Virus record (IMG/VR): IMGVR_UViG_2684623050_000001
Location: 53,698 to 117,697 of that record
DNA from: a virus
Lineage: Duplodnaviria > Caudoviricetes
Length of the DNA stretch: 64,000 bases
Reading direction: 5' to 3' (one strand)
Made by a program: the position numbers and the translations under genes. The notes below the pieces were generated by a model. That model had not been told where the DNA came from. It ran no database searches and saw nothing but the letters and a program-made list of their open reading frames with translations. Below, piece after piece: positions 7,219 through 52,077 of this stretch (positions within the stretch are counted from its first letter, which is position 1; each line of letters begins with the position of its first letter).

Positions 7219-7288
7219 GACGCTCTCGCTCTGTCGATAGATGCACTATGCGCGAGAGACGTCGGCATGTCGGTTGGGAGCTCGCGGC

Positions 7289-7711
7289 TCAATACCAATA
7301 CCAGTCCGCGGTCTGTGCGGGTCCGGAGAGCGGCGCCGTGGTCACGCTCTTGGTGTAGATGCAGGTCCGCTCGTAGTAGGCGGGTGGCTGGCCCTTGTAG
7401 CGCACGCAGTCGTAGACGCCGGTCCGCTTCTGCACCGTGACCACGGTCCCCTTGGGGATGACGACGCAGCGGCGCCCGGCCGTGGCTGGGATGGTCGGTC
7501 CTTCCGCGAGCTCGGCGAAGGCACGCCGGCCGCGCGCCTGCTCCAATGGGTTCTTCTTGTCGAGCACCATCAGCATGATGCGGTCAAAATCCGCGACGCT
7601 CTGGCAGGCAGGAAGATCCCGCTTGACCGTGTAGGGGCCAGGAGCCTCGGTCTCGGCATGGGCAGCCGTGGTGAGGAGCAGGGACGCGAGGATGAGGGCA
7701 TGTGTCTTCAT
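7289..7711 (-). CDS. Secreted Cys-containing protein
   Basis: Signal peptide MKTHALILASLLLTTAAHA; 4 Cys. Confidence 0.7.
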   Translation of the reverse strand: MKTHALILASLLLTTAAHAETEAPGPYTVKRDLPACQSVADFDRIMLMVLDKKNPLEQARGRRAFAELAEGPTIPATAGRRCVVIPKGTVVTVQKRTGVYDCVRYKGQPPAYYERTCIYTKSVTTAPLSGPAQTADWYWY

Positions 7712-7744
7712 GCCTTCGCATGTAGCTCGCGATCGTAGGGCCTG

Positions 7745-8275
7745 TCAGGTGGCGTCGGCGCTTTCGGCGCCCTGCTCCTTCAGCATCACCTGAATGCGCT
7801 CCCAGGTGGCCGCGTAGGTCTGTGGCAGCCGGTTCTGGTATTGGTAGTGGGCGGCGCGCTTGTAGAGCGGGTGAGCGCGGATCATGGCGTTCCTAGCCAT
7901 GCTCTCGGTCGTTCGCTTCTCGTAGATGCGGGTCGCGCTTGGGTCGGTCTGCGGCTTCACGCGACGGATGGCCGGGTAGTGGACGCCCTTCTCCTGGCGT
8001 TCGATGTGGAGCGCGCGCCTGGCAGCCGAACGGGCCTCTTTGCGCTGCCATGGCGTCGGCAGATGGCAGACGCGGAGCTCGACCTCTAGGAGCGTTCGCT
8101 GGCGAGCCGAGAGACCGGTGTAGGTGAGCCTCTGCTCGATCTCCTTGCGTCGCGCCTCGATCTGCTCGGGCGTGTCGATGTAGGACGCATCGGCGTGGAT
8201 GCGAGCCGCTTCTTCAGGGGTGAGACTGCGTGTGAGCGTGCGGCCGTCGGCGCGCGATTGACGCTTGATGGTCAT
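7745..8275 (-). CDS. Hypothetical protein
   Basis: 176-aa ORF in the minus-strand gene array. Confidence 0.6.
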   Translation of the reverse strand: MTIKRQSRADGRTLTRSLTPEEAARIHADASYIDTPEQIEARRKEIEQRLTYTGLSARQRTLLEVELRVCHLPTPWQRKEARSAARRALHIERQEKGVHYPAIRRVKPQTDPSATRIYEKRTTESMARNAMIRAHPLYKRAAHYQYQNRLPQTYAATWERIQVMLKEQGAESADAT

Positions 8276-8333
8276 GGCTGGTTCGCGGTATAGGGTCCGA
8301 ATCCCTACATCGCGAACCAGCGCGCAGGCGAAA

Positions 8334-8678
8334 TCAGTGCTTGAGACCGCCCAGACCGCGGGCGTGGTCGATCACCTGGTCGACGACGTAGGGGACGTGG
8401 CGCGCGTTCAGGGTGAGCAGGCGCTGGGCCTTGCGCAGCTTCTCCAGCCGGTCCTGGGGCTGCTGGAAGAAGGTCGAGGGCTCGTTGTCCAGGATCTCCT
8501 GGGCCGCGGCCTCGGCTAGGTCCGCGACCAGTTGCAGCGGGTCCAGCTCGTTCTGCGGCCGCAGGCCCTGATTGATGCCGAGCTCCTTGAGGATCTCCTC
8601 GCCTTTCATCACGGTGTTCCTTCTCGTCGTCGTCTCGTGGACGTCGCTGTCGAGAGTGAGGTAGCGGCCCGATGCCAT
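8334..8678 (-). CDS. Hypothetical protein
   Basis: Start MASGRYL, TGATG coupling with upstream gene. Confidence 0.65.
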   Translation of the reverse strand: MASGRYLTLDSDVHETTTRRNTVMKGEEILKELGINQGLRPQNELDPLQLVADLAEAAAQEILDNEPSTFFQQPQDRLEKLRKAQRLLTLNARHVPYVVDQVIDHARGLGGLKH

Positions 8679-9091
8679 CAACCCCTCCCCTTCAGCGCCT
8701 TGGCCTTCCGGCGCGCATGACGGTTGCCGGTCTGGGTTAAGGGGCGATTGAAGTTCAGGTAGTCGTCCACGATCGTTTGGGTCATCATGGTCTTCCCCTG
8801 CCGGCGCCCGTGCTCCAACGTGAGCTTCTCGATCTGCATGCGGGTGTTGGCGTCGACCCGGTAGGCGTTCGAGGCGATGTCGTGGGCCACCTGGTCCAGG
8901 TGGGCGCGGATCTCGACGGCGATGGTCTGGTCCTCGCACTTGATGTCGACGCCAACGCCGGCGCCGCGCATCAGCAGGAAGCGCACATGCTCCTCGGCCT
9001 GGGCCTTCACCCGCTCGATCTCGTCGCCGACGACCGTGATGTCGGTGTGGCCGTCGAGGATGCGGACGGTGATGTCGGGGCGCTCAGTCAT
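8678..9091 (-). CDS. Hypothetical protein
   Basis: Coupled ORF; contains GRRQGKT and NRHARR. Confidence 0.7.
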   Translation of the reverse strand: MTERPDITVRILDGHTDITVVGDEIERVKAQAEEHVRFLLMRGAGVGVDIKCEDQTIAVEIRAHLDQVAHDIASNAYRVDANTRMQIEKLTLEHGRRQGKTMMTQTIVDDYLNFNRPLTQTGNRHARRKAKALKGRG

Positions 9092-9362: not shown

Positions 9363-9685
9363 CGGGATGCCTCGGCGATGAACTCGCAGATCGCCCGTGC
9401 GGGATTCGGCAGCTCGGGCTGCATCAGAGCCTCGCGGGCCTGCTCCATCGCCGCATCGAACTCGGCGATTACATCCTCGGGGATGATGTCGTCGAACGCC
9501 TCGGCAACATCGAGCAGCGTCTGGAGCGTGCGCAGGTCGATGGTCACGGTGCCCGGCATGAGGCGCACGTAGTCGCTGCCGTCGAGACGCTGGATCGTCT
9601 GAGCGATCTGACCGCCCGGAGCATCAGTCTGCTCGATGATGCGCTCGCCCGGCAGCATGCGGGTGATGGTGTCTTGGTTCTGCAT
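9359..9685 (-). CDS. Hypothetical protein
   Basis: Start MQNQDT downstream of the promoter motif at 9721-9740. Confidence 0.65.
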   Translation of the reverse strand: MQNQDTITRMLPGERIIEQTDAPGGQIAQTIQRLDGSDYVRLMPGTVTIDLRTLQTLLDVAEAFDDIIPEDVIAEFDAAMEQAREALMQPELPNPARAICEFIAEASR

Positions 9686-9756
9686 GTCTCTGCTCGCTGT
9701 GTGCTCTGCGATGATTTGACTATCGCAGAGCAAATTCGGCATGTCGGCTGGAACGA

Positions 9757-10347
9757 CTAGGCGGCGTTCGTGCGGTAGTCTTTGACGACTTCCACGACGA
9801 CGCTGGATTCTGGGGCGCTCGCGGCGATCGTGACGGTCGTCAGGCCCCAGGCGGTGCTGTCCATCGACATCCAGCTGTTCTGCTCGGCAGTCTTGTTGGG
9901 GCTGAACTCGCTGTGGACATGCACGGCGTTGTTCGGCTCGGCGAGGAATGCAGCGGCGATACGCTCGGCTTCCTCGGAGATCTGGGCGCGCAGGGTCGGC
10001 TCGGCGCAGGCGGCGTCTCGCATCTGCTCCTCGCAGTCGAAGACGATCTTCATGGACGCACGGAACTGCTCTACGGCTTCGGCAGCGGTCTCGAACACGA
10101 GGACTGCGGTGATGTCCGGGCCGCAATCGGTGTAGGCGAACAGGGTCTTGCCCTGGCTCGCGGCGATCAGCGCGTGCGAGTGCTTGTCGGTCTCGTATTC
10201 GTAGTGGGTGTCCGGCAGGTCGGCATCGTCTGGCGCTGTGTCGCAGGTCAGGACCGGGCCGTTGTTGCTCTCGATCAGCGTCACGACGACGTGATCGTAG
10301 TCGATGGTCGAGGCGTCGCTGTGGCTGGTGATGTGTTGGATGGTCAT
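9757..10347 (-). CDS. Hypothetical protein
   Basis: 196-aa ORF, GG-free leader. Confidence 0.7.
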   Translation of the reverse strand: MTIQHITSHSDASTIDYDHVVVTLIESNNGPVLTCDTAPDDADLPDTHYEYETDKHSHALIAASQGKTLFAYTDCGPDITAVLVFETAAEAVEQFRASMKIVFDCEEQMRDAACAEPTLRAQISEEAERIAAAFLAEPNNAVHVHSEFSPNKTAEQNSWMSMDSTAWGLTTVTIAASAPESSVVVEVVKDYRTNAA

Positions 10348-10418
10348 CGCGTGCTCTCGCTAAGTCGTTGCTGACATTGCGTTTATAGCAATGTCAGCGC
10401 TGTCTGTGCGCGGGGTCT

Positions 10419-10856
10419 CTAGGCGGCGAGACGGTTCTCGTCGTGCCACTCGCGCTGCGCGACGCCGAGGTAGAGAACGGCCTTCCGGCAGAGCGGCGAG
10501 GCCGCCTGGCAGCTCCGGACGTGGCGCGCGGCGTCGTCGTCGGAGAGGAAGATCGGCAGGTCGTCCCAGCGCTGAATGATCGGGCCACTCTCCATTGTCT
10601 CGAACACGCCCCAGCCGCGCGCCAGCGCCGTCTCCTGGTCCTCGTTGGTCCAGGTGGGCATCACGTCGTCGATGGGCGTGTCGCCGATCCGCAGCGTGCC
10701 GGGGACCACGCAGTCGGCAGGGTTGCCGCTCTCGATCAGCGGTAGGACCACGGCGACCGCTCGGCTGGCCGGCGCTGGGGAAGTCGCGCCGTTCCTAAAC
10801 GGGTCGCTGACCTGACCCTCGTAGTCGCGATCGTCCTCGAACGGAGAGATGCTCAT
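10419..10856 (-). CDS. Hypothetical protein
   Basis: 145-aa ORF directly after operator 10859. Confidence 0.7.
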   Translation of the reverse strand: MSISPFEDDRDYEGQVSDPFRNGATSPAPASRAVAVVLPLIESGNPADCVVPGTLRIGDTPIDDVMPTWTNEDQETALARGWGVFETMESGPIIQRWDDLPIFLSDDDAARHVRSCQAASPLCRKAVLYLGVAQREWHDENRLAA

Positions 10857-14020: not shown

Positions 14021-14172
14021 TCGTGACTTACCCTCTTGCGTGTCGATTTCTGATGCTCTGACAATACGTTAGAGCAGTCGGCAACGCTTGCGGTGTGTGC
14101 TGGTAAGTCAGCTCTGACTGATTCGAGGCGCATGCGCAAGTGGCAAGAAAGTCACTGGTGACTGACTGCCCC

Positions 14173-14961: not shown

Positions 14962-15995
14962 CAGGCCGCGAGCTGATCCGCGCGGCCGACCACACCGTTC
15001 TCGGACGGCGGGTTGATGCGCACGTCGTAGCGGACGCCGGCCTCGACCAGCGTGCCGGTCTCCGCAGGGGTCAGATCGAAGAACACGTTCTTCTCCACGA
15101 TCCGGGTGTGGAGCTTCACGAGCAGCGCATCGACCGCGGCCAGCCTGTCGGCGTAGCGATCGGCGTCGGCGCTGTCGTCGTTCGCGACGGTCTTGAGAGC
15201 GGCGAGCTCCTGCTCGACCATCGCCTTCTCCTCGCGCAGCTCGCCGATGACCTCGGCCTGCTGCTTGACCGTCTCGTCGAGCTCCTCGATCGTCGCCGTC
15301 TGGCTCTCGATCGCCAGGTTGCGGGACTGAAGCACGTCCATCAGGTGCCCGTGCTTCATCTGGCGATCTTCGATCTCGCCTTCGAGCAGAGCGGCGTGCT
15401 CCTGGAGCCCCTCGACTTCGCCGGTGAGCTTCTCGATCACGCGGGCGATGATGCCCTTCTCGTTCTCCTCGCCGCCGTAGGTGCCGACGAAGCCCGACGC
15501 GATGATCGCCTCGAAGATGGTCTCGATGACCTCGGCCGGGTCGTAGCCGTTCTCCGGCAGCTGCGGGTAGATCTTGCGGAGCGCGAGGTCGATCTCGGCG
15601 AAGGTCTCCTCGTCGAGCGCGAGCTCCGTGTTCTTCTCGCGGATCACCTGGCCGAGGTGGTTGATGGTCTCGGCCCCCTTGGCGAGCGTGCCGGCCGCGG
15701 CGTTCATGAGGAGCGCGCTGGTCTGCTCCTGCTCCAGCTTCTTCAGGAGCTCGTTGCGGTAGTGGTCGATGACGTCGTTCAGCTCGCGGATCGTGACGTC
15801 GCGGTCGGCGATCATCTGGAACTGGTCGGACTTGAGCAGGCTGCCCAGGTGCGAGGCGACGTTGACGGTGCGCTCGTTGGTCTCGGTCTCGGCAGCGCGG
15901 GCGCGACGGAAGGCGCGGATCGAGAAGCCACTCAGAAGGCCGGACAGGCCGAGCGAGGCAGCGGCGACGAGATTGGTGGTGCTGAGGATGTCCAT
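14961..15995 (-). CDS. Membrane-anchored coiled-coil protein
   Basis: Start MDILSTT; N-terminal hydrophobic helix, long heptad region. Confidence 0.75.
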   Translation of the reverse strand: MDILSTTNLVAAASLGLSGLLSGFSIRAFRRARAAETETNERTVNVASHLGSLLKSDQFQMIADRDVTIRELNDVIDHYRNELLKKLEQEQTSALLMNAAAGTLAKGAETINHLGQVIREKNTELALDEETFAEIDLALRKIYPQLPENGYDPAEVIETIFEAIIASGFVGTYGGEENEKGIIARVIEKLTGEVEGLQEHAALLEGEIEDRQMKHGHLMDVLQSRNLAIESQTATIEELDETVKQQAEVIGELREEKAMVEQELAALKTVANDDSADADRYADRLAAVDALLVKLHTRIVEKNVFFDLTPAETGTLVEAGVRYDVRINPPSENGVVGRADQLAA

Positions 15996-16059
15996 GTCGA
16001 TCTTTCTCTGTGTGCGCTCACTCAGCGCTGACTGACTATAGCGCTCGCGTGTCGGCGTT

Positions 16060-16962: not shown

Positions 16963-17045
16963 CGCTAAGTCGCTCTCGCGCTGTTTCGCTGTTGAGCTAC
17001 ACAATGCGCGAGAGCAGTCGGCTGCGCTACTGGCGCAGCGTGGCG

Positions 17046-18496: not shown

Positions 18497-18584
18497 GTCC
18501 CTCTCGTGTGTGGTCAGTCAGTCGTGACTGATGCGCGTGCATATAGCGATCCGGACGCGGCGCTTGCGTCGGGATCGCGTGGGC

Positions 18585-20666: not shown

Positions 20667-20735
20667 TGCTGTTCTCTCGTCTTGTTTCGACTGAGAGAAG
20701 ATCGCACGCAGAACTCGGCGTGTCGGTTGGCGCGT

Positions 20736-22724: not shown

Positions 22725-22983
22725 GGCCTTCTCCTTGTTGCTCTCCAGTGCGCTCAGTAAGTCAGCGCTGACTGATTATAGCAGTGCGCGCTTGGCGTTT
22801 TCAAAGCGATCGACACAGACCGGACTCAGAGGCGGCGTGGAATGCGCGACGTTGCTCTGTGAGACGCGCGAACGCTTTCGAGCATCGCTGATGCGTCGCG
22901 AGCGAACCGACGCTGTGCGAGCTTCTGAGAGCGTCGCAGATCGCGTCCTAGCGAGAGAGCGAAGTCGCTGTTTCGCGAAACGC

Positions 22984-25901: not shown

Positions 25902-26043
25902 TGTATGTCTTCCCTCTGTGTGAGCGCTGTGTGCTGCGCTGTGCTGTTGACTATTACGTTATAGCTTCAGCAACTCGGCGTGTCGGCTGGAACACAATGG
26001 AAGACCAGCGGCTTTCGTGCTTCGCTAAACCGCTGGATCGCGA

Positions 26044-28077: not shown

Positions 28078-28162
28078 TCATCCTCTCAATGTGCAAACGC
28101 TCTCGCGTCACTCTGTTATAGCGACGCGAGAGCGGCAGTTCAGTCAGTGCTGACTGGTTTCT

Positions 28163-32098: not shown

Positions 32099-32162
32099 TC
32101 AGTCAGCGCTGACTGACTTGTTATAGCGACAAAATCGCGGCGTTTCAGTCAGCGCTGAGTGA
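32099..32162 (-). promoter_or_regulatory. Type example: GCCG-N10-GCTATA promoter bracketed by two TCAGTCA-N4-TGACTGA operators
   Basis: Operators at 32099 and 32145; TATAGC at 32122, CGGC at 32138; family of 29 operators and ~16 promoters listed under findings. Confidence 0.85.
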
Positions 32163-33974: not shown

Positions 33975-34004
33975 TGAACCCTCGTTAGTCAGTAGTGACT
34001 GAAA

Positions 34005-34532: not shown

Positions 34533-34539
34533 GGACGGA

Positions 34540-34947: not shown

Positions 34948-34972
34948 AGATTTCTCCTTCGCTAGATAGCGG

Positions 34973-35851: not shown

Positions 35852-36023
35852 GTTGATGTCCTCTATGTGCGGGAAGGGGAGGAGCGTTGGGCCGAGGGCG
35901 CACCTGCAAACCCTCGCTCCTCCCCGGTGCCTGTTCCCAGGCAGCGCTGCGTGTCTCAGTCAGCGCTGACTGATTTGTTATAGCGAGCGAGACGCGGCGT
36001 TTCGCTCGAAAAAGTGCGGAAGC

Positions 36024-38612: not shown

Positions 38613-38699
38613 CGTGTTGCTTCTTGCTCTCGGTTCAGAGGGGCACGCATCGTAAATAAGTCAGTGATGACTGACCATTCTTGACACGCGAAAAACGGC

Positions 38700-40631: not shown

Positions 40632-40670
40632 CTCCGTTCCTCAGTCAGTGCTGACTTACTAGATATAGCG

Positions 40671-40874
40671 TCAATGAAGCGGCTTTTCACATCGCTTCAG
40701 TTGGGCTTTCACGTTGGCGAGGTTCCGGTGATCGGAAGGGGTCGCCGACGTGATGATGAAGCAGCCCGTCAGGACGTAGGTCCAGCGCAGGTGGTTCTTC
40801 TTCGTCTTCTCGATGGTCCAGCCCTCGCGCTTCTTCTGGCGCGCGAGAGCGTTCATGTCGCCCTTGAGGCTCAT
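40671..40874 (-). CDS. HicA-like small protein
   Basis: GWTIEKTKKNHLRW...SATPSDHR. Confidence 0.6.
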   Translation of the reverse strand: MSLKGDMNALARQKKREGWTIEKTKKNHLRWTYVLTGCFIITSATPSDHRNLANVKAQLKRCEKPLH

Positions 40875-41176
40875 GGCGTCACCTGCAAGCCGTAGCCCGC
40901 AAGGGCGGCGTCGATCTCCTTGATCTGGCGCTCGAAGTAGGTGCGCATCAGCGTGCGCAGAACATCGAGTTCCGGCTCCCCGTCGAGGACGATCATGTCG
41001 GCCTCGTCGCCCGGACGCTTGCGCGTGGCATAGTCGCGCATCGGGTATTCCAGCTGCACCCGCACGAACTCGGGTCGATCCCGACGGTTGAGAATGCCGA
41101 GCTGCGTCGCGTAGTCCTTGCGACGCCGCGTCATGGACGCGATGGCTTCGAGATCCCGGCTGCTGACGGACTTCAT
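40871..41176 (-). CDS. Hypothetical protein
   Basis: ATGA coupling. Confidence 0.65.
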   Translation of the reverse strand: MKSVSSRDLEAIASMTRRRKDYATQLGILNRRDRPEFVRVQLEYPMRDYATRKRPGDEADMIVLDGEPELDVLRTLMRTYFERQIKEIDAALAGYGLQVTP

Positions 41177-41460: not shown

Positions 41461-43397
41461 GCTGCGATCTCCTCGATAACGCTGTCGCCGCGTGCCTTCT
41501 TGCGGACGACGATGGTGTTGCGGACCCAATCCTTGAGATCGGAGTGGCTGATGATGAAGACGGTCCCGCGCTCGCGAGCCTTCTCCTCCAGGATCATCGT
41601 CAGACGCTCGATGCCGGCCGGACACAGGGCGTTGTCGATCTCGTCGCCGATGAAGAGGTCGATCGGCTTCGTGGCGCGCGAGGCGACGAGATCCTGAAGG
41701 GCCATCGCCGCAGCGATTCGGACCTTGCGCTTCTCGCCGCCCGAGATGGCCGCGAACTCGTCGCCGCCCTGGTCGTGGGTGACGTCGATGGCGAACCGCT
41801 CCTTCAGGTTGCCCTTGGCGTCCTTGGTCAGGGTCGACCAGGTGGCGTGGCAGTTGCCGTCGGAGAGGGCGCCGAGATACTTGGCCGTCTGCGAGTTCAG
41901 GAACGGCGTGATCTCGTCCAGGAGCTCGGCGCGGGCGCCGGCCGGGGCGAACACCTTGGCAACCGCCTCGGCGACTTCGAGCGCCACGGTCGCCTTGCCG
42001 ACGTGCTCGATCGCGTCCTTGACCTCCTGCTCCAGCTGCAAGACCTTGGCCTCGGAGCGCTCCTTGGCCGCGAGATGCGGATTGACCTCGGCCTTGAGCC
42101 GGTCGATTCCCTCCTTGATCGTGCGCGCCTCGTGCGACTTGGCCCGGATGTCCGCCTGGAGCCGGTCGTCGTCGCGCAGGGATGCTCTCAGAGCGTCGCA
42201 CAGCGCGTTGGTCGCGCTGACGTCAGTCATTGATGCGCGATACGCTTCCAAGCGCTCAGTGACGCTCTGATGCGATTTCAGCGCTGTTTCATGCGCTGCT
42301 TTCGCGTCGCGCAGAGCGCGCAGCGCGTCGTTCAGAAGCCCCTGCTGCTTGGTCTGGGCCGGGGCGATGTCCTCGGCCGAGAACGGGCGGTCGCACGAGC
42401 GGCACGGGCAGCCGACCTGATGCGCCAGGCTGTCGAGGATCTCCTTCTCGCGCTTGGCGTCGCGGGCGAGCTGCCGGGCGTTGGTGTCGGTGCGGGCAGC
42501 CGCGATCGACGCCGCCTGCTCCTCCTCGATCAGCTCCCGCTCGCGCTTGCGCTCGATCTCGACCGCGGCGATCTGGGCCTCGGCCTCGTGGAGCTGCTTC
42601 TCGACGGCCGGACGGTCGATGGTCGCGCGTCCCTTGAGCGCCTTGACCTCGCCCACGAGGACACGGACCCGCGCGGTCTGGCCCTCGATGTGGTCCTTGC
42701 GCTTCTGCTCCCAGCGCTCGATGTCCGAGGTCAGGTCGAAGGCGATCCGGTCCTTCTCGTTCTCCAGGGCCTGCTGACGCAGCGCGAGCGTGTGTCCGGC
42801 CGCGGCGAGGTCCGCCTTGGCCTTCTGCACGTCGCCGAGCGCGATCCGGTAGCCCTTCTCCAGCACCGTCGCGCCGGCCGCTTCCTCGACCACGACCTTG
42901 AGATTCTTGTCGGTCATGCCCGGCAGGTCGGGCATCTGGTCCTGGCCGGCGTAGATCGCGCCGACGAAGACCTCCCAGGTGCAGCCGAGAATCTGGTTCA
43001 CGATCTCCTGGGTGAGCTTGTCGGTGCCCTTGGTCAGATCCGTGACCGTGCCGGCCTTGTCCGTGTGGACGACGGTGACGCGGTTCTTGCCGGCCTTGTG
43101 CTTGCGATGCCGGGCGATCAGGTAGCTGTCATCGCCATCGAGCACGGTCGCGGCGACGCGGCACTGCTTGCCGACCTGGTTGTTGATGACGGCATCGCCT
43201 TCGACGCCCCGCGCCGTGGTGCCGTAGAAGCACCAAGCGAGCGCATCCGGCAGGGTCGACTTGCCCGAGCCGTTGGAATCGGCGGACGTGTCGACCTCGT
43301 TGACGCCTTGGATCAGCACGAGGCCGCGGTCGGCGAGCGCGAGGCTCGCCTTCCGGATCGTGCCGAAGTTCTCGATCTCGATCTTGGGAAACTTCAC
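41457..43397 (-). CDS. sbcC: SbcC/Rad50/gp46-like ABC ATPase
   Basis: NGSGKST, CRSC zinc hook, SGGEK signature, IGDEI, IISH. Confidence 0.92.
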   Translation of the reverse strand: MKFPKIEIENFGTIRKASLALADRGLVLIQGVNEVDTSADSNGSGKSTLPDALAWCFYGTTARGVEGDAVINNQVGKQCRVAATVLDGDDSYLIARHRKHKAGKNRVTVVHTDKAGTVTDLTKGTDKLTQEIVNQILGCTWEVFVGAIYAGQDQMPDLPGMTDKNLKVVVEEAAGATVLEKGYRIALGDVQKAKADLAAAGHTLALRQQALENEKDRIAFDLTSDIERWEQKRKDHIEGQTARVRVLVGEVKALKGRATIDRPAVEKQLHEAEAQIAAVEIERKRERELIEEEQAASIAAARTDTNARQLARDAKREKEILDSLAHQVGCPCRSCDRPFSAEDIAPAQTKQQGLLNDALRALRDAKAAHETALKSHQSVTERLEAYRASMTDVSATNALCDALRASLRDDDRLQADIRAKSHEARTIKEGIDRLKAEVNPHLAAKERSEAKVLQLEQEVKDAIEHVGKATVALEVAEAVAKVFAPAGARAELLDEITPFLNSQTAKYLGALSDGNCHATWSTLTKDAKGNLKERFAIDVTHDQGGDEFAAISGGEKRKVRIAAAMALQDLVASRATKPIDLFIGDEIDNALCPAGIERLTMILEEKARERGTVFIISHSDLKDWVRNTIVVRKKARGDSVIEEIAA

Positions 43398-44045: not shown

Positions 44046-45122
44046 TTACTCGGTGGCTGCGCGGGCGTCTGTGATGATCTGCGCGGCACGGGCGGCGATG
44101 GCTGCCTCGTGGGGCGAGCCCATGCGCTTGATGAACCCGTTGACCGAGGTTTCGAGCGTGACACCCTTGGCCGCCGTCGTGCCGGTGCGGGCGCTCGCGA
44201 CCTTGCGCTCCACCTGGAAGGTGATGCCGGCCGCGCCCATCCCTTCGAGCCCGCGCCGGAAGGCGTTGGTCTCAGCGTCGTCGAAGGCGAAGCCCCGGAC
44301 CCGGACGTGGTTGTCCGCGACGATCAGCGGGATCTCCTCGCTCGGCGTGTCAGGCGTGACCTCGACGAAGGACGGGGCGCGCGAGGCGCGGTAGTTCACC
44401 CGCTTGTCATCGACGAGCAGGAACCCGGCCTTGGTGCCGATGTCCGAGAAGGTCTGGTGCGTCGTGGCGCCGATCGACCACACCTTGCCCGCCTCGAACG
44501 CGCAGTGGTGATGGTAGTGGCCGGCGAACACGCGCCGGAAGCCGAGCCCTGCCAAATAGGAAGGGGTGAGCCCGTGACCCGGCACGCCCGAGAGCACACC
44601 GTCGATGCCGGCATGGATCACGAGATCGGTCTCGGAGCAGTCGAAGCCCTTGCCGGGGACCTTGATCGTGCTCGCCAGCGCTTCGAGCGCCGCCTTGAGG
44701 TCGTCGAGCTTCGGAATCCACGGCACCATCGCCAGGCCGAGCGAAGCCAAGTGCATCGGCTCGGTGATGACGGTGAAGCCCTTGAGGCTCGACAGCGACT
44801 GAATGGCGTTGCCGAGCACCGTCGTCTCGTTGGACTTCAGGTCGTGGTTGCCGGGGATCGCCACGATGTTGAAGCCGTCCCAGGTGAGACCCTTGATCGT
44901 CTCCGAGACCGGGTTGAAGACCTCGGGGTCGATCGAGCCGCGCGAGTGGAACAGGTCGCCGGCGAAGACGATGGTGTCGCCGCCCGCCGCGCGCAGCTCC
45001 TGGGCGCCGCGCTTGAGCTCCGTCAGCATGTGGTCGAGGCGGGAGTTCAGCCCGCTCGGCAGCTTGGTGGAGTAGGCGCTCCAGTTGTGCGCGTGCTGGT
45101 CCGAGAAGAGAGCGTAGACCAT
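44046..45122 (-). CDS. sbcD: SbcD/Mre11/gp47-like metallophosphoesterase nuclease
   Basis: SDQH, GDLFH, GNHD, GHYH. Confidence 0.9.
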   Translation of the reverse strand: MVYALFSDQHAHNWSAYSTKLPSGLNSRLDHMLTELKRGAQELRAAGGDTIVFAGDLFHSRGSIDPEVFNPVSETIKGLTWDGFNIVAIPGNHDLKSNETTVLGNAIQSLSSLKGFTVITEPMHLASLGLAMVPWIPKLDDLKAALEALASTIKVPGKGFDCSETDLVIHAGIDGVLSGVPGHGLTPSYLAGLGFRRVFAGHYHHHCAFEAGKVWSIGATTHQTFSDIGTKAGFLLVDDKRVNYRASRAPSFVEVTPDTPSEEIPLIVADNHVRVRGFAFDDAETNAFRRGLEGMGAAGITFQVERKVASARTGTTAAKGVTLETSVNGFIKRMGSPHEAAIAARAAQIITDARAATE

Positions 45123-46249
45123 CAGCCGCGGCCTCCGGCGATCAGGCGCAGGCCCTGCTGCTGCTCCTGGGCGACCGACGAGAGCAGGTCGCGGTAGCCG
45201 TTGAGTGCCTTCGTGTTCTCGCCCACGAGCGAAATCATCTGCTGGAAGATGGTCGTGAACTGGTCGATGCGACCCAGCGCGGTGCCGAGCGCTTCCTCCA
45301 TGCGCTCCACGCGGTCGAACAGCTCGGTCGCGGTGCGCTTGGGCACCGCAACGGTCTCCTCGACGGGCTCCTCGATCACAGCCGGCGTCTCGGTGATGAC
45401 CGGGGCAGGGGAGGGCGCGAGATCGGGGACCGGCAGGGTCTGGCGCCAGAGCGCGATGACGCCGCGAATCTCCATGCGCATGCGGTCGAGCTCGGCGTCG
45501 GTCAGGTGGATCGAGTGACCGAAGGCAGCGGTAGCCTCGTTCAGCCGGTCGGCCTCGGCCGAGACGAACATGACGGCGCGACCGCCCCGGCCCGGCTGCC
45601 AGGCCGAGAGCGTGTCGGAGAAGCCGGCGTTGCGCAGGCAGCGGCCGGCGTTCATGTGGTGCTGGAGCTCGGGCCGGACGATCTCGTAGACGCCCTTCGC
45701 CTTCACGTAGAAGCGGCCGTCGAGCTCCACCGCAATCTGCTCGGCCGACGTGCCGCCGATCCGGAAGGTGATCGCCTTGAGCGGCTGATCGGTGCCTTCG
45801 AGGCGCATGCCGTCGAACGGGATGTAGACCGGCAGCGCGATCGGCGAGGGCGTCGGGGTCGGCGTCATGGTCTTCTCCTCGCGTTCCCGCACGAGCCTGC
45901 GGTTCTTGGCGATCGACTTGTTGCGGGTGAGATCCTTGCGGGCCTGCTCGATGAAGGCCTTGTCACGCACGACGCCGAGCATCGCGTCGGCCTTGTCCTC
46001 GTGCAGGTAGTAGCCCCAGGGGTGGACGGCGTTCTTCTTGACCAGGGCCCAGTGCCGGCCGGGGACGCGGTTGCGCGTCTCTGCGGCGATGGCTTGGCCC
46101 AGTTCCTCGTCGCCGATCACAGCGTCGGCAAGGGCGCGCCCCAGGTCGCACATGCGGACCGAGGGGACATAGGTGCCGTTCTTGTCGAGCAGGCCAACGC
46201 GGTTGTTACCCTTGACGCTCGGTAGCGGCTGGAAGCTCTCCATCTTCAC
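45122..46249 (-). CDS. Hypothetical protein (possible DNA-binding/antirepressor-like)
   Basis: 375-aa ORF after operator 46270. Confidence 0.65.
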   Translation of the reverse strand: MKMESFQPLPSVKGNNRVGLLDKNGTYVPSVRMCDLGRALADAVIGDEELGQAIAAETRNRVPGRHWALVKKNAVHPWGYYLHEDKADAMLGVVRDKAFIEQARKDLTRNKSIAKNRRLVREREEKTMTPTPTPSPIALPVYIPFDGMRLEGTDQPLKAITFRIGGTSAEQIAVELDGRFYVKAKGVYEIVRPELQHHMNAGRCLRNAGFSDTLSAWQPGRGGRAVMFVSAEADRLNEATAAFGHSIHLTDAELDRMRMEIRGVIALWRQTLPVPDLAPSPAPVITETPAVIEEPVEETVAVPKRTATELFDRVERMEEALGTALGRIDQFTTIFQQMISLVGENTKALNGYRDLLSSVAQEQQQGLRLIAGGRG

Positions 46250-46323
46250 TCTCGTCGTGCTCCGTGTGCTCAGTCATCGCTGACTGACTCGTTATAGCAG
46301 CGCACGATCGGCGTTTCAGTCGG

Positions 46324-49906: not shown

Positions 49907-49999
49907 TTCTGAGCCTCCTGACGGGCAAAGGGCGTCAGCCGCTGCCGACTGACGCCCCATGTGAAGACGGGCGCTGACGCCCGTCCCGTGTGCCCTGGA

Positions 50000-50944
50000 T
50001 CAGGCGTCGAGGTCGTTGAGCAGGTCGGCGAGCTCGGAATCCTCGTCGACAGCGGCCGGGGCGGGCTTGGCAGCCGCCTTGGTCGGGGTCTTCTTGGGCT
50101 CCTCCTCGATCACCGCGTCCTCGACGTCGGGCTCCTCCTCGACCACGGTGCGGGTCGGGGCGGCACGACGCGGGGCCGGACGCTCCTCCTCGACCTCGGC
50201 ATCGGCCACCTTCGCCGAGCTGCCGGTCAGGAGACCAGCGGCGCGGGCCGGGGCCGCGAGGGCGAGCGAGATGCCGGTGATGCCGGAGATGGCATTCAGC
50301 GCCTTGTTCTCCTCGCCGCGGAAGAACTCCTTCTCGATGAAGGCATCGAGATCGAGCTCCTTGGCCTTGGTCATCTGGTCCTTGGTCACGCGCTCGGAGC
50401 CGCGGAGCTTCGGCATCACCTTGTATTCGGTGTCCTTGCCCTTGCCGGAGCGGGTGATGATGAAGTCCAGACCCTCCTCCGCGTCGAACGGGTCGACCTC
50501 GGAGCCGTATTCCTCGGCCATCGTCATCAGCGACCCGAAGGTCGTCGGGGTCAGTTCGAGGATCTGCGGGTCGGGCGAGCCGTCGGCGCCATCACGGATG
50601 ATCGCCTTCACCAGGACCGACTTGCGGGTCTTCATCTCGGCGACCAGCTTGAGGGTCTGGTCGTCGCCGACGTGCTTGGCCGCCTTCTCGATCGCGGCGT
50701 CGATGGGGCACGGCTTGTCGTAGACGACATCCGAGCAGCCGACGACCGCGAGCACCTTGCCGGCCTCGTCCTTGATCCAGTGAACGCCGAGGTCGCGCCA
50801 GAACTTGCCCTCGGTCTGGATGATGCGGACGGTGGTCCGGCCTTCCTTGATCTTGATCGTCTTACCCGAACCGCGGGAGTAGCGGTTCTTGGCGCCCTTG
50901 ATGAGCGCCATCATTTCGGGGGACATACCAGCCATTTTCGTCAC
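50000..50944 (-). CDS. gp32-like single-stranded DNA-binding protein
   Basis: G-TVRII, H...C...CP motif, G.DFII..SG.G..TEY, acidic tail DLLNDLDA; replication context. Confidence 0.65.
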   Translation of the reverse strand: MTKMAGMSPEMMALIKGAKNRYSRGSGKTIKIKEGRTTVRIIQTEGKFWRDLGVHWIKDEAGKVLAVVGCSDVVYDKPCPIDAAIEKAAKHVGDDQTLKLVAEMKTRKSVLVKAIIRDGADGSPDPQILELTPTTFGSLMTMAEEYGSEVDPFDAEEGLDFIITRSGKGKDTEYKVMPKLRGSERVTKDQMTKAKELDLDAFIEKEFFRGEENKALNAISGITGISLALAAPARAAGLLTGSSAKVADAEVEEERPAPRRAAPTRTVVEEEPDVEDAVIEEEPKKTPTKAAAKPAPAAVDEDSELADLLNDLDA

Positions 50945-51198
50945 ACTTTCTGCTTGCTAGGTGGGCCGAAGCCCTTGGTGCTGCTTGGATTGCTTGCTTT
51001 CGCTAAGTCGCTGTTTAGCGTTCGCTCTTGCTATATAGCGACTTCGCGTCGGCGTTTTCGTGTCTTGCGACAGGAAACATCAGCGCTTGCTGATCCGGTG
51101 ATACCCGCGCCATCCGCCGAAGCGGGGACGGTTGCGGGTGAGGTAGCCCCAGGTGCCGAACCAGCAGCACCCGAGGATGAGAGCGATGACGTCGGAGC

Positions 51199-51750
51199 TC
51201 ATGCGGCCTCCGCGTCGGTGGAGCCGGCCCGGCGAGCCTCGAAGCGGGACCGCTGGCGCTCGGCCGCGGACTGCATCTCGGCCTCGGCCGCCTGGCGCCG
51301 GGAGATCGAGACCTCGCCCTTCATCTCCTCGCGGGAGATCAGGCCCATCTGCACCAGCATGTCGCGCCGGTGCCGGAAGGCTTCGAGCGCGGCCTTCGCC
51401 ACGTTCTCGACCTGCTTGGCCTCGTTGAGCGCCCGCTTGGTGACGATGACCTGCCGCTCGCGCGCGACGCGACCGGCGATCGAGGCCTCGGTGAACTTCT
51501 CCCCGAGGTTGGTGAGGCGGTCGCGAATCTCGCGGCCGGCGCGGGCCTCCTGGTTCTCCAGGAGGAGCTTGAGGTCGTCGACCTGCTTCGAGGCGAGGGA
51601 CGCCTGGATGCCGTAGTGGACGAACAGTGAGGACTGCTCGACCATGCCGGACGTCAGGTCCGAGGGCGAGAAGCGGATGTCCCGCTTCAGCTCCTCGGCG
51701 TTGACGAACATCTTGACCTTGGGGACGGTGACGGTCGGTTCGTCCGACAT
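51199..51750 (-). CDS. UvsY-like helical recombination mediator
   Basis: KFTEASI..V, ALEAFRHRRDML; adjacent to SSB. Confidence 0.55.
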   Translation of the reverse strand: MSDEPTVTVPKVKMFVNAEELKRDIRFSPSDLTSGMVEQSSLFVHYGIQASLASKQVDDLKLLLENQEARAGREIRDRLTNLGEKFTEASIAGRVARERQVIVTKRALNEAKQVENVAKAALEAFRHRRDMLVQMGLISREEMKGEVSISRRQAAEAEMQSAAERQRSRFEARRAGSTDAEAA

Positions 51751-52013
51751 CACACGCGCTCCGGCCAGTGCCAGGTGCCCTCTTCGCCCGGCGCGCCCTC
51801 GCGGATCGCGTCGATGGTCGGATAGGGCGTCGCACCGGGCGGGAAGATCGTCAGGGCGCAGACGGTGCCGACGCCCTGCTTCTTCTCCGCGTCGTTGGGT
51901 TCGTAGACCGCGGTAATCATCGCGGCCCAGCGGACGCCGGCCTTCGTGCGACCGCACTCCCGCGTCGTGTAGTGGACCATGCGCCCGACGCTCGGGCGCT
52001 GCTTCTGAGCCAT
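51750..52013 (-). CDS. Hypothetical phage protein
   Basis: PSVGRMVHY...AAMIT...WHWPER. Confidence 0.7.
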   Translation of the reverse strand: MAQKQRPSVGRMVHYTTRECGRTKAGVRWAAMITAVYEPNDAEKKQGVGTVCALTIFPPGATPYPTIDAIREGAPGEEGTWHWPERV

Positions 52014-52077
52014 GTCTGCCTGTGCTCCTACTCAGTCAGTGCTGACTGATTTGTTATAGCGAAAAGAGAGCGGCGCT

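What the first reader, a model, noticed from the sequence alone, without database searches (positions are those of the whole stretch)
7247..52074. Promoter family GCCG-N10-GCTATA, each followed by a GG/CC-free window
Seen: plus-strand TATAGC-N10-CGGC with exact spacing at 16037, 18542, 25960, 28117, 32122, 35979, 40664, 46293, 51034, 52055 (TGGC variant at 22777). Degenerate -10 variants occur at 7247, 9721, 14063, 17003, 20700. All lie just upstream of minus-strand genes, with no canonical -35. In nearly all, the conserved GG is the boundary of a 40-75 bp GG/CC-free stretch covering the -10, start site and leader (e.g. 15994-16053, 25915-25976, 32064-32138, 50989-51050); 18542 is an exception. 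Inference: a phage-specific promoter class in which one (possibly modified) CC/GG is the recognition mark while the melted and early-transcribed region must be free of it. The sigma-like gene 56817-57443 or a MotA-like activator could read it.
Basis: partly seen in the sequence, partly recalled or inferred. Interest (0 to 1): 0.85.

Follow-up and report, generated by a model that had tools for sequence, protein, structure and literature searches.

The report
Phage sigma-type promoters with GG/CC-free leaders
A 118-kb plasmid-like phage carries about seventeen copies of its own promoter signal, probably read by a sigma factor the phage encodes, and each copy opens a stretch of DNA that strictly avoids the letter pairs GG and CC for a reason still unknown.

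Summary
TATAGC-N10-CGGC occurs 10 times in the window (0.03 expected). The circular 117.7-kb contig holds 14 copies; the 5.4-Mb chromosome holds 6. All window copies lie upstream of minus-strand genes. The element is an SSU5/RHEph10-like phage-plasmid.

The same architecture, CC-N11/12-GCTATA, recurs in related elements from Methylobacterium, Rhizobium, Sinorhizobium and Shinella, and in 13 metagenomic viral contigs. Each carries an ortholog of window 56817-57443, which is a sigma-70-family protein.

The GG/CC-free stretch is real. It is present at 18 of 19 sites, against 0.58 expected from GC-matched background, and runs from the conserved CC to the Shine-Dalgarno or start codon.

Best reading (about 0.55): middle-gene promoters read by the phage sigma, with the CC box replacing a -35 hexamer. 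Main rival: host RpoD, because GCTATAAC matches an alphaproteobacterial -10 box.

The cause of the exclusion is unresolved. No DNA-modification enzyme was found. Other leaders are also GG/CC-free, as is a whole 1.68-kb cassette (window 1975-3656) encoding Gly/Pro/Trp-free proteins.

No transcription start data were available.

The parts
52055..52074 (-). Promoter box GCCG-N10-GCTATA(AC). GG/CC-free run 52028-52072. Palindrome 5 nt after the box. First gene downstream is 51199-51957.
51034..51053 (-). Promoter box. GG/CC-free run 50988-51051. No palindrome. Lies upstream of the SSB-like gene 50000-50944.
46293..46312 (-). Promoter box. GG/CC-free run 46263-46310. Palindrome follows. Upstream of 45122-46249 and the SbcD/SbcC-like genes.
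40664..40683 (-). Promoter box. GG/CC-free run 40640-40681. Palindrome follows. Upstream of 40134-40631.
35979..35998 (-). Promoter box. GG/CC-free run 35941-35996. Perfect palindrome follows. Upstream of the thymidylate-synthase-like gene 34973-35851.
32122..32141 (-). Promoter box. GG/CC-free run 32063-32139 (77 nt). Palindrome copies on both sides. Upstream of rIIA-like 29769-32060 and rIIB-like 28163-29686.
28117..28136 (-). Promoter box. GG/CC-free run 28083-28134. A palindrome overlaps the upstream GAAC. Upstream of 27718-28077.
25960..25979 (-). Promoter box preceded by CCGACAC (class B upstream box). GG/CC-free run 25914-25977. Upstream of 25008-25901.
18542..18561 (-). Promoter box whose spacer holds TCCGGA. 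This is the one site without a GG/CC-free run. Palindrome 10 nt after the box.
16037..16056 (-). Promoter box. GG/CC-free run 15993-16054. Palindrome 1 nt after the box. Upstream of the ORF starting at 15995.
22777..22796 (-). Variant GCCA-N10-GCTATA. GG/CC-free run 22746-22794. The only site with TTG at a -35 position. Upstream of the transglycosylase-like gene 22212-22724.
20700..20719 (-). Degenerate site CCGACAC-GCCGA-N9-GCGATC. GG/CC-free run 20664-20717. Upstream of the 93-aa ORF 20385-20666.
17003..17022 (-). Degenerate site GCCGA-N9-CGCATT. GG/CC-free run 16956-17020.
14063..14082 (-). Degenerate site GCCGA-N9-CGTATT. GG/CC-free run 14033-14080.
9721..9740 (-). Degenerate site CCGACAT-GCCGA-N9-GCGATA. 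GG/CC-free run 9677-9738.
7247..7266 (-). Degenerate site CCGACAT-GCCGA-N9-CGCATA. GG/CC-free run 7214-7264.
62858..62877 (-). GG/CC-free run 62807-62875. About 98 nt upstream of the XRE-family gene 62313-62759, so upstream of the sigma gene in the direction of transcription.
56817..57443 (-). Sigma-70-family gene (208 aa): a sigma region 2 domain plus a C-terminal helix-turn-helix domain. Placed between the cobS-like and dnaE genes, as in all relatives examined.
32099..32116 (.). Example of the 18-bp palindrome TCAGTCAGCGCTGACTGA. The contig holds 49 copies with up to 3 mismatches. In the window, promoter-proximal copies start at 52032, 46270, 40641, 35956, 32099, 22758, 18514 and 16018.
1975..3656 (-). 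1.68-kb cassette with 1 GG and 0 CC at 53% GC. It has sigma-70-like TTGACT promoters and encodes at least two proteins without Gly, Pro or Trp. It lies outside the finding's range but shows the same exclusion.

Best explanation
The window lies in a 117.7-kb circular phage-plasmid of the SSU5/RHEph10 kind.

The motif is the core of a phage-specific promoter with consensus (ct)GAAaC-(G/C)CCG-N10-GCTATA(AC). It drives the DNA-replication, nucleotide-metabolism, recombination and rII genes on the minus strand.

Inferred mechanism:
1. The phage's own two-domain sigma-70-family protein (56817-57443) joins the host core RNA polymerase.
2. Its region-2 domain reads the TATA-containing GCTATA(A) box as a -10 element.
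3. Its C-terminal helix-turn-helix domain reads the CC(G) box, 13 bp upstream of TATA, in place of a TTGACA -35 hexamer.

From that CC onward, the spacer, the -10 box, the start region and the 5' leader are kept free of GG and CC, as far as the Shine-Dalgarno GG or the start codon.

What is shown: the motif, its excess over chance, its position before genes, its conservation together with the sigma gene, and the GG/CC exclusion.

What is inferred: that these are promoters, that the phage sigma rather than host RpoD reads them, and any reason for the exclusion.
For: (1) Excess and specificity. There are 10 exact sites in the window against 0.03 expected. The contig has 14 (11.9 per 100 kb); the chromosome has 6 (0.11 per 100 kb). 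The composite signature (CC-N11/12-GCTATA plus a GG/CC-free 40-nt window) occurs at 14 of 16 sites in the element and at 0 of 39 sites in the chromosome.

(2) Position. 15 of the 16 sites are on the coding strand, 29-89 nt before start codons.

(3) No host-type -35. TTG is present at 1 of 19 sites. The best host tRNA upstream regions read TTGACA-N17/18-TAtAnn with GG/CC-rich spacers.

(4) The sigma protein.
- P0001 is 32% identical (E 2e-38) to the annotated sigma factor of phage RHph_X66.
- 64 of 64 aligned family members hit Pfam Sigma70_r2.
- The family profile hits cyanobacterial SigA at 3.7e-12. The 60 chains listed are all sigma factors. A second aligned stretch covers the region 3.2/4.1 linker.
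- The AF2 model has pLDDT 91.6. Residues 1-78 superpose on sigma domain 2 at 1.5-1.7 A over 69-72 residues, Z 8.3-9.1.

(5) Co-occurrence.
- The sigma gene follows the cobS-like gene in X66 and in the M. oryzae, Sinorhizobium, Pararhizobium, Shinella and Cupriavidus plasmids.
- CC-N11/12-GCTATA sites with free windows: M. oryzae 7 of 13, X66 13 of 21, pLM21S1 15 of 20, Shinella 14 of 22. Expectations are 0.2-2.0.
- All 13 IMG/VR loci found through the sigma protein hold such sites. In 20 of 21 distinct sites a CC lies 11-12 nt upstream, against a background of 0.114.

(6) Upstream box and sigma helix. The box differs by clade: GAAAC-(G/C)CCGA in the two Methylobacterium-type elements, gcaCTCCaa in X66 and pLM21S1, aaCCCttt in Shinella. 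The sigma C-terminal recognition helix differs in step: RNRIY, RKQIM, RTEIM.
Against: - No transcription start or expression data. No RNA run was listed.
- GCTATAAC (8 of 14 exact sites) equals the Caulobacter RpoD -10 consensus GCtANAWC (PMC8144410, passages). Host RpoD could therefore bind the -10 part.
- One copy (62858-62877) lies upstream of the sigma gene. X66 and pLM21S1 also have copies before their XRE-cobT-cobS-sigma genes. The sigma would then have to be autoregulated or first expressed from another promoter.
- The helix/box co-variation rests on three clades only. It did not hold in the metagenomic loci: helices with SK, VA, AA, KQ, HA or AE at the variable positions all go with a CCG box.
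- P0001 alone scores below Pfam's cut-off (18.2 against 24 bits). Foldseek gave no match at E <= 0.001. The aligner's own note says Z below about 13 for helical proteins can reflect only a common arrangement.
- The GG/CC exclusion is not confined to this promoter class, so it may be unrelated to recognition.
Confidence: 0.55

Rival explanations
1. The boxes are promoters read by the host housekeeping sigma (RpoD). A near-consensus alphaproteobacterial -10 (GCTATAAC) would make a -35 hexamer dispensable. The CC box would be either the site of a phage activator placed about where T4's MotA box sits, or a spacer feature. The phage sigma would serve other promoters, for example late ones.
For: - The -10 part equals GCtANAWC, the Caulobacter RpoD -10 (PMC8144410, passages).
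- The -10 core GCTAT is the same in elements from different alphaproteobacterial genera.
- Copies stand upstream of the sigma gene itself.
- Only three exact sites lie in the structural-gene half of the contig, so another promoter class must exist there.
- The CC box lies 13 bp from TATA. This resembles the MotA-box spacing of T4 middle promoters as I recall it; that figure comes from no call.
Against: - The host's own strong promoters depend on TTG at -35, which 18 of 19 sites lack.
- The chromosome shows no enrichment of the motif (6 sites) and none of the composite signature (0 of 39).
- No MotA- or AsiA-like protein was noticed among the window ORFs scanned. No dedicated search for them was run.
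- The motif and the sigma gene co-occur in every relative examined.
Confidence: 0.3
2. The GG/CC-free window is not part of promoter recognition. Two separate constraints would produce it. (a) The promoter-proximal elements themselves contain no GG or CC. (b) Selection keeps the 5' leader such that the Shine-Dalgarno is the first GG and no CC-containing stretch can pair with it. This reading can hold whichever sigma reads the promoter.
For: - In 11 of 19 sites the run ends at a GG. In 8 of these the GG lies in a Shine-Dalgarno-like context 6-15 nt before the start codon. In 5 sites the run extends to or past the start codon.
- Leaders behind other promoter-like boxes (4285-4370, 5560-5650, 10335-10420) are also GG/CC-free.
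- The palindrome and the GCTATA box fill up to 24 nt of the window.
Against: - About half of the free zone lies upstream of any plausible start site. 12 of the 14 N10 spacers lack GG/CC although their sequences vary.
- Sites without a palindrome have equally long runs (25960: 64 nt; 51034: 64 nt; 9721: 62 nt; 17003: 65 nt).
- The 1.68-kb cassette is free throughout its coding sequence and has no GGAG at all. Leader accessibility cannot explain that.
Confidence: 0.35
3. One reading: the phage DNA carries a modified base at CC/GG. The single CC is a modified recognition mark, and the melted and early-transcribed DNA must be free of the modification.
For: - The exclusion is strand-symmetric (GG and CC both absent) and starts upstream of the transcribed part, which fits a DNA-level cause.
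- The invariant CC sits at a fixed distance in all relatives.
- A whole cassette driven by sigma-70-like promoters is free of GG/CC.
Against: - No methyltransferase, glycosyltransferase, hydroxymethylase or deazaguanine-pathway protein appears among the 40 window ORFs scanned against Pfam.
- pLM21S1 is reported to have no DNA methyltransferase gene (PMC5537653, passages).
- The element is kept as a plasmid in its host, and coding DNA full of GG/CC is transcribed anyway.
- Many window ORFs remain without any family, so an unknown enzyme is not excluded.
Confidence: 0.08
4. The motif and the GG/CC-free runs are chance, or a by-product of lower intergenic G+C.
For: Intergenic DNA here is less G+C-rich: about 45-60% in the 40-nt windows against 65% overall.
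Against: - 10 sites against 0.03 expected.
- 18 of 19 windows free against 0.58 expected at matched G+C.
- The pattern recurs in four related elements and 13 metagenomic loci.
Confidence: 0.01

Closest known systems
Phage-encoded sigma factors with their own promoter consensus (SPO1 gp28 and gp33/34, T4 gp55, phiEco32 gp36). Recalled; only the SPO1 switch appears in a search listing (PMC13401047).
   Same: A phage gene of the sigma-70 family. A phage-specific consensus repeated before many genes and not enriched in the host genome. Use of the host core polymerase is inferred.
   Different: The -10 part is like the host's rather than unlike it. The upstream element is a short CC(G) box 13 bp from TATA. 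A copy precedes the sigma gene itself. The promoters carry a strict GG/CC exclusion. The element is a temperate phage-plasmid, not a virulent phage.
T4 middle promoters read by sigma appropriation (MotA box plus AsiA). Recalled from memory.
   Same: A good -10 element and no -35 hexamer. An activator-type box about 12-13 bp upstream of the -10 element.
   Different: No MotA or AsiA relative was seen. Here a complete small sigma is encoded, which could supply the box recognition itself.
Alphaproteobacterial RpoD promoters, TTGaCgS-N10-14-GCtANAWC (quoted in PMC8144410).
   Same: GCTATAAC fits GCtANAWC exactly in 8 of 14 exact sites.
   Different: The TTG of the -35 box is missing in 18 of 19 sites. 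A GCCG/CCCG box is fixed at N10. The composite signature is absent from the host chromosome.
Depletion of CC protospacer-adjacent motifs in Pseudomonas phages facing type I-F CRISPR-Cas (PMC12174588; title and abstract start from a search listing only).
   Same: Avoidance of the CC/GG dinucleotide by a phage.
   Different: That case is a genome-wide statistical depletion. Here the genome as a whole has ordinary GG/CC frequencies (0.080 and 0.085 per position), while promoters, leaders and one cassette show a local, nearly absolute exclusion. No Cas1 gene was found in this genome.
Promoter-plus-stem-loop cassettes between genes of T4-type phages, and the dispersed C1 operators of phage-plasmid P1. 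Both recalled from memory.
   Same: A short repeated palindrome placed next to many promoters and in most intergenic gaps (49 copies).
   Different: Which of the two this palindrome resembles (RNA stem-loop or repressor site) is undecided. Its arms differ between related elements while its symmetry is kept. Both readings predict that.

Membership tests
Canonical sigma-70 (RpoD) promoter | -35 hexamer TTGACA-like, 16-18 bp upstream of the -10 hexamer | tested here: not met
   TTG at that position in 1 of 19 sites; best hexamer match is 4 of 6 in 7 sites and 5 of 6 in one. The consensus scan found 0 sites in 25000-41000.
Canonical sigma-70 (RpoD) promoter | -10 element TAnnnT-like, or for alphaproteobacteria GCtANAWC | tested here: met
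   GCTATA in all exact sites by definition; GCTATAAC in 8 of 14. The consensus is quoted in PMC8144410. T at the last position of the E. coli hexamer is absent.
Canonical sigma-70 (RpoD) promoter | Transcription starts 5-9 nt downstream of the -10 element | not testable with these tools
   No RNA run was listed for this DNA.
Regulon of a phage-encoded sigma factor | The phage encodes a sigma-70-family protein | tested here: met
   64 of 64 family members hit Sigma70_r2. Profile against PDB: SigA at 3.7e-12, and all 60 listed chains are sigma factors. The region 3.2/4.1 stretch aligns. The sigma domain 2 superposes at 1.5-1.7 A. P0001 alone is below Pfam's cut-off.
Regulon of a phage-encoded sigma factor | A consensus repeated before phage genes and not used by the host genome | tested here: met
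   14 sites in 117.7 kb against 6 in 5.4 Mb. The composite signature is at 14 of 16 sites in the element and 0 of 39 in the chromosome.
Regulon of a phage-encoded sigma factor | The motif and the sigma gene occur together in relatives | tested here: met
   Five complete related elements and 13 IMG/VR loci. In the Pararhizobium element only 3 sites fit GCTATA (the rest read GCTATN). The Cupriavidus element has 0 of 4 free windows.
Regulon of a phage-encoded sigma factor | Promoter specificity follows the sigma's DNA-binding residues | tested here: inconclusive
   Three clades differ in both upstream box and recognition helix. The metagenomic loci, with varied helices, all have a CCG box.
Regulon of a phage-encoded sigma factor | Holoenzyme containing the phage sigma initiates at these sites | not testable with these tools
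   Needs in vitro transcription or a sigma-deletion mutant.
T4-type middle promoter (MotA/AsiA sigma appropriation) | Activator box about 12 bp upstream of a sigma-70 -10 element, with no -35 hexamer | tested here: met
   The CC lies 13 bp (or 14 bp in X66 and pLM21S1) before TATA. The T4 spacing itself is recalled, not taken from a call.
T4-type middle promoter (MotA/AsiA sigma appropriation) | MotA-like activator and AsiA-like anti-sigma encoded by the phage | not tested
   No dedicated search was run. None was named among the window ORFs scanned against Pfam and PHROGs.
CRISPR PAM depletion (CC of type I-F) | Genome-wide depletion of the PAM dinucleotide | tested here: not met
   Genome-wide GG is 0.080 and CC 0.085 per position. 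The exclusion is local.
CRISPR PAM depletion (CC of type I-F) | The host carries a CRISPR-Cas system | tested here: not met
   No Cas1 (PF01867) match in the 100%-complete own genome; the same search hit 7 of 14 control genomes. Other hosts of the element are unknown.

The most novel reading that the evidence does not exclude
Candidates are a frequent-cutting or nicking nuclease, a roadblock or coating protein, or a factor like T4 Alc (recalled) that stops unprotected host polymerase at GG/CC.

Under this reading, every promoter, spacer and leader, and one whole sigma-70-driven cassette, are kept as protected islands. The cassette's proteins have had to evolve without Gly, Pro and Trp.

The cassette constraint has been lifted in one relative. 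The M. oryzae homologue has 71 GG/CC in its DNA but still only 2 Gly, 1 Pro and 0 Trp. The constraint is therefore imposed on the nucleic acid, is actively maintained, and can be lost.
Probability: 0.25. Interest if true: 0.9.

Novelty: new variant of a known kind. Interest (0 to 1): 0.7.

Why it matters
If the phage sigma reads these boxes, this would define the transcription programme of a widespread group of phage-plasmids (SSU5/RHEph10-like) in soil and plant-associated alphaproteobacteria. I found nothing in print on that programme. The sigma family has at least 515 clusters at 50% identity. The work would yield a compact orthogonal sigma/promoter pair for high-G+C hosts.

The GG/CC exclusion is the more surprising part. 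It is a near-absolute dinucleotide ban. It spans promoters, leaders and a conserved gene whose protein family has largely done without three amino acids: 25 of 43 homologues have none. That points to an unrecognised process acting on a two-base word. The natural contrast between elements that keep the ban and one that lost it makes the question experimentally approachable.

Tried and rejected
Expression and transcription starts. The look-up of sequencing runs listed no RNA holder for window 25501-35500. This is no evidence either way.

Earlier notes of this scan.

Literature.
- Searches for the related phages' names, for SSU5 with sigma and promoter terms, for GCTATAA and the Caulobacter consensus words, for phage sigma, rhizobiophage and middle-promoter terms, and for GG/CC dinucleotide avoidance returned no paper describing this promoter family or a GG/CC-free gene.
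- The B1VFA/V1VFA-S announcement has no occurrence of promoter, sigma, palindrome or motif in its main text (PMC12509600, find mode).
Annotation tables of PMC5537653, or of the Rhizobium phage papers, could mention the sigma gene or repeats that I could not see.

More relatives.
- The sigma protein was not found in 100 related genomes of the held collection.
- The genome-contig scan with alignment A1 found nothing.
- Alignment A2 was too divergent for that tool.
- The metagenome scan was not used.

Fine co-variation between the sigma recognition helix and the upstream box was looked for in 13 IMG/VR loci and not seen.

Rfam gave no family at gathering score anywhere in the window.

Palindromes as intrinsic terminators. 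The terminator scan found 9 sites against 8.2 expected. The palindromes score only on the antisense strand.

A gene that would explain the cassette's exclusion. Comparing ORFs of this element with six relatives gave three genes present in all four cassette-bearing relatives and absent from the two relatives without a long GG/CC-free run: rIIA-like, rIIB-like and a 93-aa ORF. With five elements against two, all related, this is an association only and I draw no conclusion from it.

CRISPR PAM avoidance was considered. It was set aside because the depletion is local and no Cas1 was found.

Cytosine-deaminase erosion was considered. I judge it unlikely because the cassette protein family keeps intact, conserved ORFs without Gly/Pro/Trp down to 42% identity.

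My first palindrome scan used a wrong spacing and gave 2 hits. It was corrected. An upstream-run column was faulty and is not used.

Full report
WHAT THE DNA IS

The window is G000 contig C2, positions 54759-117697, and runs across the end of that contig into its start. C2 is therefore a 117,697-bp circle at 65.3% G+C. It sits beside a 5.44-Mb chromosome at 68.5% G+C.

Its DnaE-type polymerase (52078-55482) is 57-59% identical to those of Rhizobium phages RHph_X66, B1VFA and RHEph10. It is 35% identical to that of Salmonella phage SSU5.

Read on the minus strand, the gene order is:
- XRE-family regulator (62313-62759)
- cobT-like, split into two ORFs (60836-61987 and 59448-60836)
- cobS-like (57443-58642)
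- the sigma-like gene (56817-57443)
- HNH endonuclease (55482-55964)
- dnaE
- SSB, 5'-3' exonuclease, RecA, SbcCD-like, class II ribonucleotide reductase, thymidylate synthase, dUTPase, rIIA and rIIB

This matches the annotated order in RHph_X66. ParA and a ribbon-helix-helix gene lie at 536-1674. The element is an SSU5/RHEph10-like phage-plasmid.

THE MOTIF

The contig has 14 copies: 13 on the minus strand and one on the plus strand outside the window. The chromosome has 6. My hand estimate from base composition is about 11 for the chromosome, so the host shows no enrichment.

Aligned on the minus strand the consensus is longer than reported: (ct)GAAaC-GCCG-N8-c-GCTATA-ac. In the columns before GCCG, G is present in 11, A in 13, A in 12 and C in 10 of the 14 sites.

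The TGGC variant and the five degenerate sites are real. Four of the window sites (25960, 20700, 9721, 7247) share a second kind of upstream box, CCGACAY-GCCGA.

A relaxed pattern, CC-N11/12-GCTATA, finds 16 sites in the contig, 15 of them on the minus strand.

Every window site precedes a minus-strand ORF.

The -35 position holds TTG in only 1 of 19 sites. The standard sigma-70 scan finds nothing in 25000-41000. The best host tRNA upstream regions read TTGACA-N17/18-TAtAnn, with spacers full of GG and CC.

THE GG/CC-FREE WINDOW

The contig has 53 GG/CC-free runs of 40 nt or more. Among them, 18 of the 19 minus-strand sites own a run of 42-77 nt whose upstream end is exactly the CC of the box. 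Site 18542, with TCCGGA in its spacer, is the exception. Between +10 and +39 from the G of GCCG no site has a GG or CC, while the flanks have 0.12-0.24 per nucleotide.

Three controls were run.
- Mononucleotide shuffles of each 60-nt segment gave P of 0.001 or less for 12 of 19 sites.
- Windows of 40 nt at matched G+C from the rest of the element predict 0.58 free windows, and from the host 0.14. The observed number is 18.
- With sites defined without reference to the exclusion (CC-N11/12-GCTATA), 14 of 16 windows are free against 0.68 expected. In the chromosome 0 of 39 are free.

Lower G+C alone therefore does not explain the depletion.

The run usually ends at the ribosome-binding site or the start codon. 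It ends at a GG in 11 of 19 sites. In 8 of those the GG sits in a GGAG-like context 6-15 nt before the start codon. In 5 sites the run reaches or passes the start codon.

About half of the run lies upstream of any plausible start site. 12 of the 14 variable N10 spacers lack GG/CC. Part of the constraint is therefore on untranscribed DNA.

THE SIGMA GENE

Window 56817-57443 encodes a 208-aa protein, P0001.
- On its own it matches Pfam Sigma70_r2 only weakly (E 0.0022, 18.2 bits against a 24-bit cut-off).
- It is 32% identical (E 2e-38) to the annotated sigma factor of RHph_X66, which passes the cut-off.
- The family is large: 515 representatives at E <= 0.001 in the 50%-identity library.
- 64 of 64 aligned members match Sigma70_r2.
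- The family profile hits primary sigma factors in the PDB down to 3.7e-12, and the 60 listed chains are all sigma factors. A second aligned stretch corresponds to the 'SLD...LSPRER' segment that links regions 3.2 and 4.1.
- The AlphaFold model (pLDDT 91.6) has two helical domains joined by a low-confidence linker.
- Foldseek's top rows are all sigma factors, but none at E <= 0.001.
- VIA-align superposes residues 1-78 on sigma domain 2 at 1.5-1.7 A over 69-72 residues, Z 8.3-9.1. The tool's own caveat is that such Z values are common for helical proteins.

I take it as a small two-domain sigma factor (region 2 plus a region-4-like helix-turn-helix). This is the layout I recall for ECF-type sigmas.

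RELATIVES

Whole records were fetched for RHph_X66 and for sigma-bearing plasmids of Methylobacterium oryzae, Sinorhizobium sp. LM21 (pLM21S1), Shinella, Pararhizobium and Cupriavidus. In all six the sigma gene follows the cobS-like (MoxR/AAA) gene.

All four of the following alphaproteobacterial elements carry many GCTATA(A) boxes on the coding strand, with a CC 11-12 nt upstream and a GG/CC-free window:

| Element | Free windows | Expected |
|---|---|---|
| M. oryzae plasmid | 7 of 13 | 0.19 |
| RHph_X66 | 13 of 21 | 0.96 |
| pLM21S1 | 15 of 20 | 2.0 |
| Shinella plasmid | 14 of 22 | 1.2 |

The Pararhizobium element uses GCTATN boxes of the same build. The betaproteobacterial Cupriavidus element shows only traces.

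The sequence around the CC differs by clade:
- GAAAC-(G/C)CCGA in the two Methylobacterium-type elements
- gcaC(T)TCCaa in X66 and pLM21S1
- aaCCCttt in Shinella

The sigma C-terminal helix differs in step: RNRIY, RKQIM, RTEIM. That is three clades, so it counts as a hint only.

A scan of IMG/VR with a sigma alignment gave 13 loci. Every one holds GCTAT boxes with free windows. In 20 of 21 distinct boxes a CC lies 11-12 nt upstream, against a background of 0.114. In these loci the variable helix residues do not track the box, which is CCG throughout.

Two results stand out. The sigma gene and the promoter architecture travel together over a wide range. The CC at a fixed distance is the invariant of the upstream box.

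WHO READS IT

For the phage sigma:
- co-occurrence with the motif;
- absence of the host's TTG -35;
- absence of the signature from the chromosome;
- a sigma whose region 2 is closest to primary sigmas, which fits a TATA-type -10, and whose divergent C-terminal domain could read a non-standard upstream box.

For the host RpoD:
- GCTATAAC equals the Caulobacter RpoD -10 consensus GCtANAWC (PMC8144410, passages);
- copies lie upstream of the sigma gene in this element and in X66 and pLM21S1.

A mixed picture is possible: weak RpoD use plus positive autoregulation by the phage sigma. I put the phage-sigma reading at about 0.55 and the RpoD reading, with or without a phage activator, at about 0.3.

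THE PALINDROME

An 18-bp palindrome, TCAGTCA-N4-TGACTGA, occurs 49 times in the contig with up to 3 mismatches. Ten shuffles gave 0-1. The first megabase of the chromosome has none at up to 2 mismatches.

It follows GCTATA by 5 nt at five window sites, by 1 nt at two and by 10 nt at one. It also overlaps the upstream GAAC at two window sites. It stands in most intergenic gaps, with or without a promoter box, often just before the ribosome-binding site.

Related elements have their own versions: TAAGTAAGCRCTTACTTA in X66 and pLM21S1, and others in Shinella and Pararhizobium. The arms change together. Both an RNA stem-loop and a dimeric protein site predict that, so I leave the question open.

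The palindrome contributes up to 18 nt to the free window. Sites without it have equally long runs.

THE WIDER EXCLUSION

The exclusion is not limited to this promoter class. Leaders behind other box types are also free (4285-4370, 5560-5650, 10335-10420).

Most striking is window 1975-3656. It is 1,682 bp at 53% G+C with one GG and no CC. The longest run in the 5.4-Mb chromosome is 115 nt, at 35% G+C.

This cassette has sigma-70-like promoters (TTGACT, 16 nt, TAAATT) and encodes at least two proteins that contain no Gly, Pro or Trp.

Cassettes of the same kind exist in other elements:
- X66: 432 + 336 nt
- pLM21S1: 1,334 nt
- Shinella: 724 + 151 nt
- Pararhizobium: 899 + 137 nt

They are absent from the M. 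oryzae and Cupriavidus plasmids.

The 204-aa protein is conserved at 30-34% identity to those of pLM21S1 and X66. Of 43 homologues, counting the query, 25 have no Gly, Pro or Trp, and the most any has is six.

The M. oryzae homologue has 71 GG/CC in its DNA but still only 2 Gly, 1 Pro and 0 Trp. The constraint is therefore on the nucleic acid. The protein composition is its consequence, and the constraint can be lifted.

I found no DNA-modification enzyme among 40 window ORFs scanned against Pfam. No Cas1 was found in the genome. No paper on such a ban turned up.

VERDICT

It is a phage-specific promoter family, with a fixed CC as the core of its upstream box and a cognate sigma gene. The idea of a modified CC/GG has no support. 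The GG/CC exclusion is broader than the promoter family, and its cause is unknown.

As a promoter class this is a new variant of the known phage-sigma theme. The GG/CC ban is the part that would surprise a specialist.

Noticed in passing
window 1975-3656: A 1,682-bp stretch at 53% G+C with one GG and no CC. It carries sigma-70-like TTGACT promoters and at least two ORFs (2795-3409, 2060-2437) whose proteins have no Gly, Pro or Trp. Similar cassettes occur in four related elements. In the M. oryzae plasmid the homologous gene has regained 71 GG/CC but not the three amino acids.
   Followed up: partly
whole contig; in the window e.g. 32099-32116, 35956-35973, 52032-52049: An 18-bp palindrome TCAGTCA-N4-TGACTGA in 49 copies, in most intergenic gaps. 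Each related element has its own version with both arms changed together. Whether it is an RNA stem-loop or a protein site is undecided.
   Followed up: partly
window 28163-32060 and 20385-20666: The rIIA-like, rIIB-like and a 93-aa ORF are the only genes found in this element and in all four relatives that have a long GG/CC-free cassette, and absent from the two relatives without one. That is five related elements against two, so it is an association only.
   Followed up: partly
window 4285-4370 and 5560-5650: Two leaders share a conserved GG/CC-free motif GTCAGCAACGAAGCGCAGCGCTTCACA, with a GAAGCGC/GCGCTTC inverted repeat, behind non-GCTATA boxes. A similar leader is seen in the M. oryzae plasmid.
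   Followed up: no
window 7273, 9747, 20726, 25986 (minus strand): A second upstream box, cca(a/g)CCGACA(c/t)GCCGA, precedes four of the promoter sites, mostly those with a weak -10. It may be a separate activator site.
   Followed up: no
window 54970-55126 (inside dnaE) and 42249-42339 (inside the SbcC-like gene): Coding stretches of 157 nt (three adjacent runs separated by single GG/CC pairs) and 91 nt that are nearly or fully GG/CC-free. The dnaE stretch has a counterpart in the M. oryzae plasmid.
   Followed up: no
window 59448-61987: The cobT-like gene is one 778-aa CDS in RHph_X66 but two abutting ORFs here (383 and 462 aa). The first ends with a weak Pfam Sigma70_r4 match at residues 332-376 (E 3.4e-6).
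   Followed up: no
window 52078-55482: The DnaE-type polymerase carries a C-terminal uracil-DNA-glycosylase-superfamily domain at residues 979-1081 (E 3.5e-9).
   Followed up: no
window 1975-2075: Two direct repeats of CATCAGTGTGTCA, separated by CGCGCG, lie just after the parA/ribbon-helix-helix genes. This is a possible partition or iteron site.
   Followed up: no
window 55482-55964: An HNH endonuclease gene lies between the sigma-adjacent ORF and dnaE. A homologue was found in the M. oryzae plasmid only, not in the Rhizobiaceae relatives.
   Followed up: no
window 32099-32125 and 35956-35982, plus strand: Read on the antisense strand, the palindrome followed by the complement of the -10 region (TTTGTTATAG) scores as an intrinsic-terminator-like site. 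The total for the region is not above chance (9 against 8.2).
   Followed up: no
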